The position numbers were made by a program. DNA of 64,000 bases from Escherichia coli (lineage in GTDB: Bacteria; Pseudomonadota; Gammaproteobacteria; Enterobacterales; Enterobacteriaceae): the NCBI RefSeq assembly GCF_022846255.1, contig NZ_AP025682.1. The stretch is one strand, 5' to 3'. This document shows, piece after piece, positions 29,201 through 35,200 of this stretch; position 1 is the stretch's first letter, and every line of letters begins with the position of its first letter.

Positions 29201-32200
29201 CCATAAACGCTCAACGCCGCCCCAGTCGGTTTGCGTCAGTGTTCCGGTGCTCCACAGGAACATGCTTTGCAGTTGGTCATGATGGAAGATAACCAGTAAC
29301 TGATTGATTGCCCCACAATAAAGGCTCACCACCAGCCCCGCGAGGATCAGCGTTACCGGCGAAAGCCGTTTCCCCCACGCGACGCCAAAGACGATTAAGC
29401 CAACAACGCAAGCGCCCGCCAGCGCAGCAAACTGGCTCGCCATCGCGCCGGGGATCGCCCAGAGCGTCGTGACGGTAATCCCCAGTTGCGCGCCTGTAGC
29501 AACGCCCAACGTCGTCGGTTCCGCCAGCGGGTTACGCAGCACTTGCTGAAACAGCACGCCCACCAGCCCCAGGCCCGCGCCCACCAGCAGCGAAATCGCC
29601 AGACGCGGCAGCAAGCTGTAGTGAAAAATCATCTGCTCGATGACGTCAATATCCGGCGACCAGGCGGCCTGCGCCCACTGGCTGCGCGGCAGCGCCTGCG
29701 AGGAGTTCATCCAGGTGAGCGCCGATGCGGCAACCACCAGCAGCGCCAGCAATAACGCCGGGAAAAGCGCAATTCGTTTACTCACGCTTTACCTCCGATG
29801 GCGTTATCCAGAATACGCACAAAGTGCATTGCCGAAAGCGTCGCGCCATAGAACCAGACCGCCGGAACGCGCTGAAAGCGTCCGGCGCGGACAAACGGCA
29901 TGGCCTGCCACAGCGGGGTTGCCATTAGCGCATTCATGTCTTTGCTGTTGTCGTGATCAAAACAGAGCACATCAACGTCTTTATACGCCGCCAGACGATC
30001 GATACTGACGGCGGTACTGCCCCAGAAGTTGGTTTCCCCTTGCCAGGCATTTGGGATGCCGTACTCATCGAGAATTTCCTGGAACAAGCTGTTTGGACCG
30101 AAGACCAACATATGGCGCGGATCGATAAGCGTCGTCAGCAATAACGGGCGTGCACCACGCTTCACAAAGCGGGGTTTCATGCTGCGGATAAAGTCTTCAT
30201 AGTGCGTTAAATGCGTTTCCGCTGCGCTTTGCAGGTTAAGTAAATCTGCCATTTCCGTCAGTGATTTACGCGCCATCGCCAGTGGCTGTTTGCCGTCGCT
30301 GAAGTTAAATCCGCGCCCCGGCGCAATACGTGCCAGCATTTCTGGTGAAGGGCCATATCCTGCAGACCAGACCATAAACGACGGTTTCATTTCGGTCAGC
30401 AGTTCAAGGTTGGGTTCTGTACGCAAACCAACGTCAATCACTGAGTCCGGCAATGGCGGTTCGCTGACCCACAGGCGATAGTTGATGGTGTCCGCCACGC
30501 CGTAAGGCACGATGCCGAGCGCCAGCAGTAACTCCACCGGCAACCACTCCAGTGCCACAATACGATTGGGATCAATAACTGCCGCGTGGGCGGTATTCAT
30601 CTGCCATAAGAACGGAGAAAGCGCCATCGCCGTTAACAGTCGGCGGCGCGAAATAAGAGGTAAGCCGCTCATCAATAAACAAAACTCACAGGTGCAGCAC
30701 CCGCCGGATGCGGCAGAATACCCATCGGGATGCCATAAATCATTTCGAGGGTTTCGCCGCGCATAATTTCCGCAGGCGTTCCCTGAGCAATCATTTCACC
30801 GCCGCGCAGGGCGACCAGATAATCACAGTAGCGCGCCGCCATATTGATATCGTGCAGCACGGCAATGACCGTCAGGCCACGCTCCTGACTTAAACGATGC
30901 ACCAGCGCCAGTACATCAACCTGGTGGGCGATATCCAGCGCCGAAGTCGGTTCGTCGAGCAACAGACAGCGGCTATCCTGCGCCACCAGCATGGCGATCC
31001 ACGCCCGCTGACGTTCGCCGCCAGAAAGGCTATCGACCAGCCGATGCGCCAGCGGTTTTAAGCCAACCAGCGAGATAGCTTCCTCGACCTTTTCGCGATC
31101 TGCCGCACCAAAGCGCCCTAGTGCGCCATGCCACGGGTAACGACCAATCGCCACCAGTTCACGCACGGTCATCCCTTCTGCCGGAGGAAGCTGCTGCGGT
31201 AAATAAGCCACTTTGCGGGCAAACGCTTTGCTGCTCCAGCTTTCCAGCGGTTGGGCATCAAGAAGAATCTCCCCTTCCGACGGTGGCTGGTGACGACCAA
31301 GCATTTTGAGCAGAGTGGATTTACCAGAACCGTTGTGACCAATCAGACCAGTCACTTTCCCGGCAGGAAAGGTTAACGACAACGGATGCAAAAGCGTGCG
31401 CCCGGGCACACGAAAGGAGATATTACGCAGTGCAAAAGTGGTATCGGAATGATTCGTGTATTCCTGCATAACAGCCAACTTGTGAAACGGGCACGGAAAT
31501 CCGTGCCCCAAAAGAGAAATTAGAAACGGAAGGTTGCGGTTGCAACGACCTGACGTTCTGCGCCCCAGAAGCAACCATAAGTGTTAAAGCAGCTGGCGAC
31601 GTATTCACGATCAAACAGGTTGTTGACATGCAGCGCCACGTTGGAGCCCGCCATGCCGACTCGCGCCAGATCATAACGCACTAACGCATCCACGACCGTA
31701 TAACTTCCCACTTTAAAGGAGTTAGCCGGATCACCATAGCTGGAGCCAGTATAACGACCACCGGTGCCCAGCGTCAGACCTGAAAGCGGACCGTCAAAGA
31801 AGGTATAGTCAGCCCACAGCGAAGCCATGTGTTTTGGCACCTGTGCAGGCGTATTGCCTTTGTAGGTAGTATCGGTAGTGTATTCCGCATCGGTGTAAGT
31901 ATAAGAACCGACTACGTTAACACTCGCCGACAGTGCCGCTTTCGCTTCCAGCTCTACGCCACGCGCACGAATCTCACCGCCTTCAACCGAGAACAGTGAA
32001 CCGTTCGGATCCGCCATCAGGTTATTAGTTTTGGTAAGCTGATACAGTGCGCCAGTCACCACAATTGGGCGATCTTCTGGCACATATTTCACGCCGACTT
32101 CATACTGTTTGCCTTTCGAAGGTGCAAACAGATCACCGTTCGCATCAGTCTGTGAAGCGGGTTCAAATGATTCACTGTAGCTGAAGTAAGGCGTTACGCC

Positions 32201-35200
32201 GTTGTCGAACAGGTAGTTTACACCACCACGCCAGGTGAACTCTTTGTCGTCACGTTCAGATTTATTACCGTAATCACGGTTGAAAGATGACTGATCGGCC
32301 CAGTCATAGCGACCGCCAAGCGTAACCAGCACTTTATCCCACTGCGCCTGATCCTGAACATACAGGCCGGTTTGTTTCTGTTTCAGCAGAACGCGGTATG
32401 GACCAGACGGATTCGGGTGAGCGCCAAAATCAAAGTCACTACGGTCTAAATTATAGATATCAGATGGTGCAACTGAACCGGCATATCCGAACCAGGAGTC
32501 GATGTCATTACGCATACGCATAAAGTCAACGCCAGTCAGCAGAGTGTGATCCACAGAACCGGTTGCGAATTTGCTTTGCAACTGAGTATCAACAGAGAAG
32601 TTTTCTAACTTCTCATTATCGATAACGTACTGACGAGTCAGTGTATGGCCCCATTGAGACTGCGGGATACTTAAACATGGACTCGCCTTGAGTGCCTCCT
32701 GGTCTTTGGTATACAGCGGATCTGAACACATACCGTAGCCATATACGCTCTTTTGCGAAACTTTATTTTGCGCAAAGCGCAGGTTCTGACGCACAGTAAA
32801 GGTGTCGTTAAATTCGTGGTCGAAGCTATAACCAATCATCTTCTCGTTACGAGAATAGGTGTTGTTCTTCGCCCCTTCGTTAAAGTCTGTCGGCAGACGC
32901 TTACCGTTTGGCAGCGGCTCAACGGTCCCCTCTTTCGGCAGCCAGCCGTAATAACCAGTTTCCGGCTCGTTCTGGAAGTAAGAAAGGAAGGTGAAATTGG
33001 TTTTATCGTCCGGACGCCAGGTGAACGCCGGTGCAATAGCATAACGCTGCTCTTCTGACCCTTTCTGCTGGGCATTGGCAGAACGCGCAAGACCGGTCAG
33101 GCGATAAGAATAAACGCCGTCATCATCCAGTGCATCGCTGAAGTCAAAACCGGTCTGGAACAGGCTGTCAGTCCCGGCCTTAAACTGAACTTCTTTCAAC
33201 GGTTCAGTGGTCGGACGCTTGCTGACCATATTCAACAGACCGCCAGGACTGCTTTTACCGTAAAGCACGGAAACCGGGCCACGCATAATTTCAGCACGTT
33301 CCAGCATATACGGGTCGATGACCGCATCGTTATAGAAGTTGCCCTGCAACTTCAGGCCATTCAGATAGTTATTCTGGCTTTGGCCGTCTGCCGCAAATCC
33401 GCGGATGATCAGGTAATCATAAGTATTAGATGCGCCACGGGTTCCCACAGCAACGCCAGGGGTATAGCTAAGCGCTTCTTTCACCGACTTAGGCTGATGC
33501 AGCGCCATCTCTTCAGCGGTGACGACAGAAATAGATTGAGGTACTTTTTGAATCGGCGTATCGGTTTTAGTGCCGGTAGCTGACTGTCGCGCCGCAATAG
33601 TTGCAGCCGGCCCCCATGCGCTTTCTTGCGGCGCAGGTGCAGCGGTAACGGTGATAGTGTCTTCTTTCGGTTCAACCGCTGCCTGTGCATAAACAGACAT
33701 GCCGCTAACCGCTGTGGCTACTACAACTGCGATTTTACGCAGTGAGTGTTTTGGCTGAGCAGTTTTGGAAGGTGCCATTGGTATTTCTCTAGTGTAAAGT
33801 GAATGATAACGTAAACGAGAATGATTATTATAAAGATGAGATAATATTCGAAACGCTGGCGGGTTCGCAAGCGGTACGCAATCTGCGCATTCCTGAAGGG
33901 TCAATAAACAATCAGATGAAAAGAAAGGGTTAATACTTTGGAGGGGATGTTATTTTACCGGATGGCAGCTCGCCATCCGGTATATCACGCTTAGACGTTA
34001 ATTACTCCCAAACATATCTTTAATCCAACCGGCTACACCGTCGCTGTCTTTCTGCTCTTGCTGAGCAGGTTGCTGTTGCGGCTGTTGCTGCGGCTGAGAA
34101 GACTGATCAAACGGATTGCCTGACGGTTGCTGCTGCATCTCACTCTGCTGGCACAGCGATTGCGGATCGCTGGTCCAGACCGGCAAGACACGCATACCAC
34201 CGCTGCAAACAAAGTTGCCGTCGTAGTCCACGCCCATATCTGCAATATCTTCTGGCGGAACAAGATTCAGCGGCGTTGGCGTCTGGTTAGCCAGATAACG
34301 CTGATAAATCGACATTGCCCCGCTGGCACCATACAGTTTGGTCGGCTGGTTGTTATCACGGCCGACCCAGGTGATGGTCACCGTGCTCCCATCAATGCCC
34401 GCAAACCAGGTATCTACGTTATTGTTGGTAGTCCCTGTTTTCCCTGCCAGATGCAGGTTCGGGTATTTCGCCCCAAGCTGACGTCCCGTACCGCGTTGTA
34501 CAACCTGCTGCATGGTCCATAGTGTCAGATACGCCGCCTGCGCCGGAACAGCGCGTTCCGCCTGCGGGAAGCTCTGATACAACACCTTGCCGTCTTCTGC
34601 GATGACTGAACGTAGCGCGGAAAGCGGAGCACGATTACCACCGCTGGCGATAGTCTGGAAGGCCTGCGCCACTTCGATTGGCGTTAAGTTCAACGCCCCC
34701 AACAACATTGCTGGAACTGGATTCAGTTGATCTTTCGGCACACCCAGTTTAATCCAGGTCTCCGTAACCGCAGGCAGCCCCAACGCCATGCCCAGATTCA
34801 CCGTCGGCACGTTCATCGAACGGGTCAACGCATCTACCAGCATCACCCTGCCACTTTCGCTATAACGACGATCATCGTTCTGCGGTGACCAGACCTGGCC
34901 ATTCGGCTGACGCAGCGCGATTGGCGCATCGGCAATCCACGTATTTAAACGATATATTTTCGGCTGGCTTAAGGCCGTTAGATAAGTCGCTGGTTTTGCA
35001 AGGGAACCAATCGAACGACGCGCCTGCATCGCACGATTGTAGCCCGCAAACTGCGGCTCAGAACCACCGACCATCGCACGAACTTCACCGCTAAAGCGGT
35101 CAACAACCACAATCGCGGTTTCAAGATCGCTCAACTTACGCTGTTTCTTCAGTGCCGGAATGCCTTCCACGGCGGCTTTTTCTGCCGCGTCCTGGGCCAC

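What the first reader, a model, noticed from the sequence alone, without database searches (positions are those of the whole stretch)
32000..32730. FhuA allele with divergent surface-loop region
The plug and terminal barrel strands match canonical FhuA, but the segment starting at the first Cys of the disulfide-bounded loop (CSDPLYTKDQEALKASPC here, versus a shorter CSDPANAYSKQC in K-12 as I recall) and continuing for about 240 residues differs at many positions, and the precursor is about 5 residues longer. These external loops are the receptor surface for phages T1, T5 and phi80, colicin M, microcin J25 and albomycin. A loop-variant allele is what phage-driven diversifying selection produces and may change phage or bacteriocin susceptibility.
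Basis: partly seen in the sequence, partly recalled or inferred. Interest (0 to 1): 0.5.

Follow-up and report, generated by a model that had tools for sequence, protein, structure and literature searches.

The report
Nissle-type fhuA loop-variant allele

Summary
fhuA lies at window 31520..33778 on the minus strand. It encodes a 752-aa precursor (K-12: 747). The L4 disulfide loop reads CSDPLYTKDQEALKASPC against K-12 CSDPANAYSKQC.

The gene is 100% identical to fhuA of E. coli Nissle 1917. Divergence from K-12 is confined to one block, codons 336-611 (window 31946..32773): 27% nucleotide difference inside, 4.7% outside.

Of 81 differing alignment columns, 68 lie in extracellular loops L4-L8 or their strand extensions. 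Only one lies in a periplasmic turn. All 10 ferrichrome-contact residues, the TonB box and the fold are conserved.

The block is not fast in-place evolution. Its synonymous divergence is saturated even in the membrane strands. It is closer to Citrobacter fhuA than to K-12. Natural recombinants exist, and within each allele class the loops are under strong purifying selection. It is an old, recombining allele class, found in about 20% of complete E. coli genomes.

This matches class "E2" of Wang et al. 2018. Zhang et al. 2026 reported that FhuA-Nissle does not support T1 or T5 infection. Eleven of the 19 FhuA residues that hydrogen-bond T5 pb5 are changed.

Verdict: already known, low interest.

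The parts
31520..33778 (-). fhuA coding sequence: 752-aa precursor plus stop. 100% nucleotide-identical to fhuA of E. coli Nissle 1917 (WP_000035479.1).
   Evidence: NCBIfam FhuA equivalog NF007465 scores 1452 bits against a cut-off of 803.
33200..33679 (-). Plug (cork) domain, codons 34-193. It includes the TonB box DTITV at 33647..33661. There are 3 substitutions against K-12 (S77A, H89Y, E98D, mature numbering).
   Evidence: In the AF2 model the barrel starts at residue 194.
31946..32773 (-). Divergent recombinant block, codons 336-611. It encodes strands 7-16 and loops L4-L8. Nucleotide difference from K-12 is 27.1% inside and 4.7% outside.
   Evidence: Two-breakpoint maximum chi-square. 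Sliding identity. dS 1.16 in the slightly wider interval, codons 326-618, against 0.11-0.26 in the flanks.
32645..32728 (-). Loop L4 (codons 351-378). It includes the Cys351-Cys368 loop CSDPLYTKDQEALKASPC, 6 residues longer than in K-12. 21 differing columns.
32396..32488 (-). Loop L5 (codons 431-461). 16 differing columns, including D394A, D395G and N419P, which are pb5 hydrogen-bond partners in K-12 FhuA.
32246..32299 (-). Extracellular tip of the strand 11-12 hairpin, i.e. L6 and its extensions (codons 494-511). 8 differing columns.
32120..32161 (-). Loop L7 (codons 540-553, K-12 mature 502-515). 7 differing columns.
   Evidence: The boundaries agree with EL7 Glu501-Ser516 in PMC9586334.
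31973..32029 (-). L8 hairpin (codons 584-602, K-12 mature 546-564). E554N and F557L change two of the residues singled out for phage binding.
33374..33553 (-). A second, small divergent tract inside the plug-coding part (codons 76-135). Changes are mostly synonymous: dS 0.81 with 3 amino-acid changes.
33779..33997 (-). mrcB-fhuA intergenic region holding the fhuA promoter. It is 93% identical to K-12. The AT-rich stretch TATAATAATCATTCTCGTTTACGTTATCATTCAC just upstream of the start is identical. I read this stretch as the Fur-box region from general knowledge of fhuA regulation; it was not tested here.
   Evidence: alignment.
30672..31469 (-). fhuC, the next gene of the fhuACDB operon. fhuD follows at 29782..30675.

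Best explanation
The gene is a functional fhuA, the TonB-dependent outer-membrane ferrichrome transporter. It carries a common natural allele identical to that of E. coli Nissle 1917.

The segment encoding surface loops L4-L8 and the strands between them belongs to an old allele lineage. I equate this lineage with class E2 of Wang et al. 2018. It coexists in E. coli with the K-12 lineage (E1) and at least two others, and it moves between backgrounds by homologous recombination within the gene.

The plug, TonB box, ferrichrome pocket, membrane strands and periplasmic turns stay under purifying selection, so siderophore uptake is presumably preserved. The outer rim that phage receptor-binding proteins grip is re-surfaced.

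As a result, phages tuned to the K-12 surface (T1, T5) do not use this FhuA. This result is published for the identical protein. It is rationalised here by the change of 11 of the 19 FhuA residues that hydrogen-bond T5 pb5.

Inferred, not shown: that the classes are kept in the population by frequency-dependent selection from phages and/or FhuA-dependent bacteriocins.
For: Identity and family:
- 100% nucleotide identity to Nissle fhuA.
- FhuA equivalog 1452 bits against a cut-off of 803.
- AF2 model with pLDDT 90 superposes on K-12 FhuA 1BY5 with TM 0.98 and rmsd 1.2 A.
- fhuACDB context.
- 10 of 10 ferrichrome-contact residues conserved.

Mosaic structure:
- Block at codons 336-611 with 27.1% against 4.7% divergence.
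- dS about 1.16 in the block against 0.11-0.26 in the flanks.

Topology:
- 68 of 81 differing columns are extracellular in L4-L8.
- The 8 differences in membrane strands are all conservative.
- 1 difference lies in a periplasmic turn.

Old allele classes:
- The block is 78-80% nt / 85-87% aa identical to Citrobacter spp. but only 74.4% / 76.3% to K-12.
- The K-12 block is closest to Enterobacter, Leclercia and Salmonella arizonae.
- The flanks of the two E. coli alleles are 94-97.5% identical.
- Both classes occur in other Escherichia species: sp. E1V33 has the Nissle type at 92.8% nt, and E. whittamii has the K-12 type at 93.5%.

Recombination: FDAARGOS_1297 has Nissle-like flanks with a K-12-type centre.

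Discrete classes in 5,426 complete genomes, by block identity: 267 at >=99%, 566 at 95-99%, 237 at 90-95%, only 18 at 80-90%, 3,673 at 60-80%.

Within-class constraint: extracellular omega is 0.015 (K-12 vs E. whittamii) and 0.08-0.10 (Nissle type).

Function:
- PMC13226779 reports no T1 or T5 infection of GB2005 expressing FhuA-Nissle, and states that the protein is not recognised by T1 or T5. Wild-type Nissle became T5-sensitive (EOP 0.47) once its own fhuA was deleted and K-12 fhuA was expressed.
- From the pb5-FhuA hydrogen-bond list in PMC9586334 SI, 11 of 19 FhuA residues and 17 of 27 bonds fall on changed positions.

Prior description: Wang et al. 2018 (bioRxiv 10.1101/320069) and the mosaic-porin follow-up.
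Against: - Ferrichrome transport by this allele was not measured here or in the papers read.
- The main text of Zhang et al. reports no control showing that FhuA-Nissle was expressed and inserted in the outer membrane of the K-12 test strain. The negative adsorption result alone is therefore not airtight.
- Assignment to class E2 rests on matching the published description. The strain table of that paper was not available.
- No formal test of balancing or positive selection could be run. Pairwise dN/dS between classes is uninformative because dS is saturated.
- The selecting agent is unknown.
- Loop boundaries come from an AF2 model and a 10-residue membrane rule, not from solved coordinates of this allele. 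L4 and L5 have lower model confidence (10-residue-block mean pLDDT down to 68-79).
Confidence: 0.85

Rival explanations
1. In-place diversifying selection. The loops of a K-12-like ancestor accumulated amino-acid substitutions rapidly under phage pressure within E. coli.
For: - Substitutions are concentrated in external loops.
- fhuA was listed as positively selected in earlier genome scans, cited (Chen 2006, Petersen 2007).
- The L4 tip shows the highest local omega, 0.42 for Nissle against the ST131 type.
Against: - Synonymous sites are saturated across the whole block, including membrane strands: dS 0.78 against 0.11-0.26 in the flanks.
- The breakpoints are sharp.
- The block is nearer to Citrobacter than to K-12.
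- A natural cassette swap exists.
- Omega is below 1 in every class where it could be computed, and 0.015-0.10 within allele classes.
Confidence: 0.07
2. Recent import of the block from another genus (Citrobacter-like donor) into an E. coli fhuA.
For: At protein level the block's nearest non-Escherichia relatives are Citrobacter species, at 85-87%.
Against: - Nucleotide identity to the best Citrobacter representative is only 79.7%. That is no higher than the 83-88% seen in the flanks for the same species pair.
- The same block type sits in another Escherichia species at 92.8%.
- It is present in about 1,070 of 5,426 E. coli genomes, with internal diversity of 90-100%.

Any transfer was ancient. 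Only species-representative genomes were scanned, so a closer donor could have been missed.
Confidence: 0.07
3. The allele classes are maintained by something other than phages. Candidates are FhuA-dependent bacteriocins (colicin M, microcin J25), antibiotics (albomycin), host antibodies against surface loops, or different hydroxamate siderophore preferences.
For: - The same loops serve colicin M, microcin J25 and albomycin in K-12 (established knowledge; Llp-induced movement of EL7/EL8 blocks albomycin, phi80 and colicin M).
- Strong within-class conservation of the loops suggests they do something specific.
Against: - No data on these agents for this allele.
- The ferrichrome pocket is unchanged at 10 of 10 residues, which argues against a change of substrate.
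- The only phenotype measured so far is phage resistance.

This rival is not exclusive of the best explanation. It differs only in the selecting agent.
Confidence: 0.25
4. Relaxed constraint: the receptor surface is drifting or the gene is decaying in this lineage.
For: Some complete genomes carry truncated or disrupted fhuA (H27, H30, H70).
Against: - The ORF is intact and is the exact protein seen on at least 1,000 contigs.
- Within-class omega is 0.03-0.10.
- The plug, TonB box and ferrichrome residues are conserved.
- The model is confident and superposes on solved FhuA.
Confidence: 0.02

Closest known systems
E. coli K-12 FhuA (P06971; PDB 1BY3, 1BY5, 2FCP, 8A8C, 8B14)
   Same: - Same gene, locus and operon.
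- Same plug plus 22-strand barrel fold (TM 0.98).
- Identical TonB box, and identical loops L1-L3 and L9-L11.
- All 10 ferrichrome-contact residues identical.
   Different: - 81 differing alignment columns, 68 of them on the extracellular face in L4-L8.
- L4 is 6 residues longer and L5 is 1 residue shorter.
- 11 of 19 pb5 hydrogen-bond residues are changed, including Y325, K327, K344, D394, D395, N419, E554 and F557.
- Reported not to act as a T1 or T5 receptor.
FhuA of E. coli Nissle 1917 (WP_000035479.1 / AID77215.1), studied by Zhang et al. 2026 (PMC13226779)
   Same: Nucleotide sequence 100% identical over the whole gene. The published phenotype therefore applies to this protein.
   Different: The surrounding 24 kb of the window is only 99.2% identical to Nissle. 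The host strain is a relative, not Nissle itself.
FhuA allele class E2 of Wang et al. 2018 (bioRxiv 10.1101/320069; E1 = K-12, with E3 and E4 as the other classes)
   Same: - Described as E1-like overall but with an insertion in L4, within a mosaic gene whose indels sit at loop apexes. That is what is seen here.
- The PD23-type allele fetched here fits their E3: L4 and L5 shortened, L6 and L7 lengthened.
   Different: - Their strain table could not be read, so the assignment is by description only.
- This work adds block boundaries, saturated dS, within-class purifying selection, frequencies in 5,426 genomes and the pb5-contact mapping.
ST131 / M24-type fhuA (WP_000124398.1)
   Same: Same E2-type block, about 100% nucleotide-identical outside L4.
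   Different: The L4 tip is replaced by a shorter, Citrobacter-like version: LYSSNP---SSSPCANV instead of LYTKDQEALKASPCLSI. This is a micro-mosaic within the block.
Mosaic outer-membrane phage-receptor genes of E. coli (ompC, ompF, ompA, lamB)
   Same: Hypervariable external loops combined by local recombination on a conserved barrel. This was described as the same pattern as fhuA.
   Different: Those are diffusion porins or structural proteins without a plug or TonB dependence.

Membership tests
FhuA (TonB-dependent ferrichrome transporter) | Sequence match to the curated FhuA equivalog model above its cut-off | tested here: met
   NF007465 scores 1452 bits against a cut-off of 803, full length. 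TIGR01783 scores 631 bits.
FhuA (TonB-dependent ferrichrome transporter) | N-terminal plug inside a 22-strand beta-barrel | tested here: met
   AF2 model with pLDDT 90 and pTM 0.88 shows 22 barrel strands after residue 193. Foldseek against 1BY5 gives TM 0.98 and rmsd 1.2 A. Precomputed Pfam hits are PF07715 and PF00593.
FhuA (TonB-dependent ferrichrome transporter) | TonB box near the mature N-terminus | tested here: met
   Residues 34-100 are identical to K-12, including EDTITV.
FhuA (TonB-dependent ferrichrome transporter) | Ferrichrome-contact residues: R81, G99, Q100, Y116, Y244, W246, Y313, Y315, F391, F693 (mature numbering). The list is from my knowledge of the 1998 structures. Y244/W246 are confirmed as ferrichrome sites in PMC10373560. 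| tested here: met
   10 of 10 identical.
FhuA (TonB-dependent ferrichrome transporter) | Genomic context mrcB-fhuA-fhuC-fhuD-fhuB | tested here: met
FhuA (TonB-dependent ferrichrome transporter) | Ferrichrome or albomycin transport activity | not testable with these tools
   No assay for this allele was found in the papers read.
FhuA allele class E2 (Wang et al. 2018) | Insertion in L4 relative to E1 (K-12) / S1 | tested here: met
   +6 residues between the L4 cysteines. Published description.
FhuA allele class E2 (Wang et al. 2018) | Lacks the E3 signature (L4 and L5 shortened, L6 and L7 lengthened) and the E4 signature (insertions in L3 and L10) | tested here: met
   L3, L9, L10 and L11 are identical to K-12. 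There are no L6 or L7 indels. The E3-like allele PD23 is clearly distinct.
FhuA allele class E2 (Wang et al. 2018) | Strain or sequence listed as E2 by the authors | not testable with these tools
   The supplementary table is not held.
Receptor for phages T5 and T1 (K-12-type FhuA surface) | Conservation of the FhuA residues that hydrogen-bond T5 pb5 (PISA list, PMC9586334 SI Fig. S5) | tested here: not met
   11 of 19 residues are changed. They carry 17 of the 27 hydrogen bonds, 10 of them through side chains.
Receptor for phages T5 and T1 (K-12-type FhuA surface) | Supports adsorption and plating of T1 and T5 | not testable with these tools
   Published result for the identical protein is negative (PMC13226779). 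No expression control is reported in the main text.

The most novel reading that the evidence does not exclude
The L4-L8 block behaves as a discrete receptor-surface cassette. It is held as a trans-species balanced polymorphism across Enterobacteriaceae. Divergence between classes is deep, but purifying selection within a class is strong even in the loops.

That would imply each class is matched by its own, largely uncharacterised set of FhuA-dependent phages or bacteriocins. The Nissle/ST131 surface would then have cognate phages with receptor-binding proteins unlike T5 pb5 or the T1 type. It would also imply that cassette swaps, including the separate L4-tip micro-cassette, reset susceptibility in clinically important B2 lineages.
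Probability: 0.45. Interest if true: 0.4.

Novelty: already known. Interest (0 to 1): 0.15.

Why it matters
It has practical relevance rather than conceptual novelty. Roughly one in five complete E. coli genomes carry this surface type of FhuA, including Nissle 1917 and an ST131 (O25b:H4) genome.

Phages, pb5-based targeting tools, and possibly colicin M, microcin J25 or albomycin-type "Trojan horse" agents developed on K-12 FhuA may not act on these strains. Receptor typing of fhuA could help predict phage host range.

The allele classes and the T1/T5 phenotype are already published. The scan therefore adds confirmation and some quantitative detail: block boundaries, age, frequency and pb5-contact mapping. 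It does not add a discovery.

Tried and rejected
- The full-length search against the 90%-clustered protein collection returned only about 100% identical E. coli entries. It gave no diversity. It showed only that the exact protein is very common.
- Pairwise dN/dS between classes is uninformative in the loops, because pS of 0.85 exceeds the Jukes-Cantor limit. It gives no evidence for omega above 1 anywhere, so I do not claim positive selection.
- I looked for published phages that use the Nissle/ST131/CFT073-type FhuA and for colicin data on such strains. I found nothing specific, only a remark that CFT073 is not susceptible to phi80, with no cause given.
- I tried to confirm the E2 assignment from the strain table of Wang et al. 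The table is not held.
- I considered that the window might be Nissle 1917 itself. I rejected this because the 24-kb surroundings are 99.2% identical, with mismatches spread over the flanks, while fhuA is identical.
- The 101-aa plus-strand ORF at 32753..33058 inside fhuA was treated as an antisense artefact of a long coding region and was not pursued.

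
Full report
**What is there.**
The region lies inside a 2,259-nt minus-strand gene at window 31520..33778. It sits between mrcB (upstream, 33998..36547) and fhuC/fhuD (downstream). The product is a 752-aa FhuA precursor. It scores 1452 bits on the NCBIfam FhuA equivalog NF007465 (cut-off 803). Its best PDB sequence matches are the K-12 FhuA entries. An AlphaFold2 model built on a 101-sequence alignment has mean pLDDT 90 and pTM 0.88. It shows a plug followed by 22 strands and superposes on FhuA 1BY5 with TM 0.98 and rmsd 1.2 A. 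The whole gene is 100% nucleotide-identical to fhuA of E. coli Nissle 1917 (WP_000035479.1). The window is not Nissle itself: the surrounding 24 kb is 99.2% identical to Nissle, and at best 99.4% identical to any complete genome.

**Checking the observation.**
- The first L4 cysteine is codon 351 (32726..32728).
- The loop reads CSDPLYTKDQEALKASPC, against CSDPANAYSKQC in K-12.
- The precursor is 5 residues longer: +6 in L4 and -1 in L5.

There are 81 differing alignment columns against K-12. This agrees with the 82 of 753 reported by Zhang et al.. Amino-acid differences span mature K-12 residues 304-572. At nucleotide level, a two-breakpoint scan places the divergent block at codons 336-611 (window 31946..32773). 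Difference is 27.1% inside and 4.7% outside, chi-square 233 (sliding identities).

**Where the changes sit.**
I took strand boundaries from the model. They reproduce published K-12 loop limits: L7 502-515 and L8 546-564 in PMC9586334, and L3, L4 and L11 as I recall them from Endriss and Braun 2004. I counted the 10 residues nearest each periplasmic end as membrane-embedded. The 81 columns then fall as follows:

| Location | Differing columns |
|---|---|
| Extracellular loops L4-L8 or their strand extensions | 68 |
| Membrane strands (all conservative: S/A, V/I, V/L, Q/E, N/Q, I/L) | 8 |
| Periplasmic turn (D369S) | 1 |
| Plug | 3 |
| Signal peptide | 1 |

Within the block, extracellular positions are changed 68 of 174 times, against 7 of 119 elsewhere (Fisher p = 1.5e-11). 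Loops L1-L3 and L9-L11 are identical to K-12. All ten ferrichrome-contact residues and the TonB box are unchanged.

**How the block arose.**
Synonymous divergence from K-12 is 1.16 in the block, against 0.11-0.26 in the flanks. Inside the block it is high in the membrane strands too: dS 0.78 with omega 0.05. In the strict loops it is beyond the correction limit. The whole block is therefore old, not just its loops.

A scan of one genome per species found the following:

| Comparison (block region) | nt identity | aa identity |
|---|---|---|
| This allele vs Citrobacter species | 78-80% | 85-87% |
| This allele vs K-12 | 74.4% | 76.3% |
| K-12 vs Enterobacter, Leclercia, Salmonella arizonae | 80-82% | not tabulated here |
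| The two E. coli alleles, flanks only | 94-97.5% | not tabulated here |

Both block types occur in other Escherichia species. E. sp. E1V33 carries this type at 92.8% nt, and E. whittamii carries the K-12 type at 93.5%.

A natural recombinant, FDAARGOS_1297, carries Nissle-like flanks with a K-12-type centre.

Within the Nissle-type block, the L4 tip is itself exchangeable. ST131/M24/PE164 carry a shorter, Citrobacter-like tip in an otherwise about 100% identical block.

Within a class the surface is conserved. Extracellular omega is 0.015 for K-12 vs E. whittamii at dS 0.34. It is 0.08-0.10 among Nissle-type alleles at dS 0.28-0.40.

The picture is one of a few discrete, old surface types shuffled by intragenic recombination. 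It is not a continuous run of point substitutions. I found no omega above 1, and I make no claim of demonstrated positive selection.

**Frequency.**
Block identity across 5,426 complete E. coli genomes:

| Identity to this block | Genomes |
|---|---|
| >=99% | 267 |
| 95-99% (includes an ST131 genome) | 566 |
| 90-95% | 237 |
| 80-90% | 18 |
| 60-80% (K-12 type) | 3,673 |
| No megablast match (more distant classes such as the 729-aa PD23 type) | 665 |

The gap between 80% and 90% shows that the classes are discrete. About 20% of genomes carry this class. The exact protein is on at least 1,000 contigs in the large protein collection.

**What it does.**
- Shown by sequence and model: an intact transporter with the K-12 plug, ferrichrome pocket and fold.
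- Inferred: normal ferrichrome uptake.
- Published for the identical protein (Zhang et al. 2026, PMC13226779): T1 and T5 did not infect an fhuA-disrupted K-12 derivative expressing FhuA-Nissle, whereas the K-12 allele restored sensitivity. The authors state that FhuA-Nissle is not recognised by T1 or T5. Wild-type Nissle became T5-sensitive (EOP 0.47) once its own fhuA was deleted and the K-12 allele was expressed.
- Caveat: their main text mentions no control for expression or membrane insertion of FhuA-Nissle in the K-12 host.

A structural rationale is available. The T5 pb5-FhuA cryo-EM structure has 27 hydrogen bonds, mostly to EL4, EL5 and EL8. From the PISA list in its supplement, 11 of the 19 FhuA residues involved are changed here: Y325, K327, K344, D394, D395, N419, A465, T467, V506, E554 and F557. 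These account for 17 of the 27 bonds, 10 of them through side chains. F557 and Y325 are the residues singled out for phage docking in PMC10373560.

Effects on colicin M, microcin J25, albomycin and phi80 are untested for this allele. One paper remarks that CFT073 is not susceptible to phi80, without giving the cause.

**Comparison with what is known.**
Wang et al. 2018 (bioRxiv 10.1101/320069) described four E. coli FhuA clusters: E1 (K-12) and E2-E4. They noted that the indels sit at loop apexes, that the fhuA tree conflicts with the species tree, and that local recombination rather than simple positive selection explains the pattern. E2 is described as carrying an L4 insertion relative to E1. 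The present allele fits E2 by description. Their strain table was not available. A follow-up generalised the pattern to ompA, ompC, ompF and lamB. With the 2026 phenotype paper, both the allele and its consequence for T1 and T5 are in the literature.

**Verdict.**
The functional guess is right for phages. The evolutionary wording needs correcting: this is an old recombining allele class, not in-place diversification. The finding is already known, so interest is low.

What this analysis adds:
- block coordinates;
- evidence for saturated synonymous divergence and trans-species relationships;
- within-class purifying selection on the loops;
- class frequencies;
- the count of altered pb5 contacts.

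Noticed in passing
window 33374..33553 (fhuA codons 76-135, plug domain): A second, short tract of elevated divergence from K-12 (80-89% nt, dS 0.81) with only 3 amino-acid changes. It looks like a separate small recombination patch in the conserved plug-coding part. FDAARGOS_1297 carries the K-12 version of part of it (codons 101-125).
   Followed up: partly
window 32666..32713 (L4 tip, codons 356-371); loci L003, L083: Inside the Nissle-type block, the L4 tip exists in two forms. The long form (this window, AGR6137, Escherichia sp. E1V33) reads LYTKDQEALKASPCLSI. The short, Citrobacter-like form (M24, an ST131 genome, PE164) reads LYSSNP---SSSPCANV. The rest of the block is about 100% identical. 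This is a micro-cassette within the cassette.
   Followed up: partly
locus L006 (E. coli FDAARGOS_1297, NZ_CP070148.1): A natural recombinant fhuA. Its flanks are identical to this window's allele, and mrcB and fhuC match the Nissle proteins, but the central L4-L8 block is K-12 type.
   Followed up: partly
window 22000..46000: The window's strain is not Nissle 1917. The 24 kb around fhuA is 99.2% identical to Nissle and at best 99.4% to any complete genome (strain 2A), while fhuA itself is 100% identical to Nissle's. In strain 2A the mismatches cluster in the 5' part of fhuA.
   Followed up: partly
locus L003 (E. coli M24, NZ_CP080120.1) positions 1-284: A gene annotated as a fimbrial protein, not mrcB, ends about 220 nt upstream of fhuA. 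The DNA there is unrelated to the K-12 mrcB 3' end. Some lineages therefore have an insertion or rearrangement between mrcB and fhuA.
   Followed up: no
hits H27, H30, H70: Some complete E. coli genomes match only part of fhuA: 66%, 12% or 7% of the query. One partial match lies next to an autotransporter gene. This suggests naturally truncated or disrupted fhuA. Three matches lie on plasmids.
   Followed up: no
locus L005 (E. coli PD23, NZ_CP074052.1): A third, much more distant fhuA class (729 aa, about 77% nt overall). L4 is deleted, including both cysteines. There are insertions in the L6 and L7 regions, and two ferrichrome-contact residues differ (Q100L, Y315T). It fits class E3 of Wang et al.
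   Followed up: partly
window 32753..33058 (+): A 101-aa open reading frame antisense to fhuA. No evidence that it is a gene. It was treated as a by-product of the long coding region.
   Followed up: no
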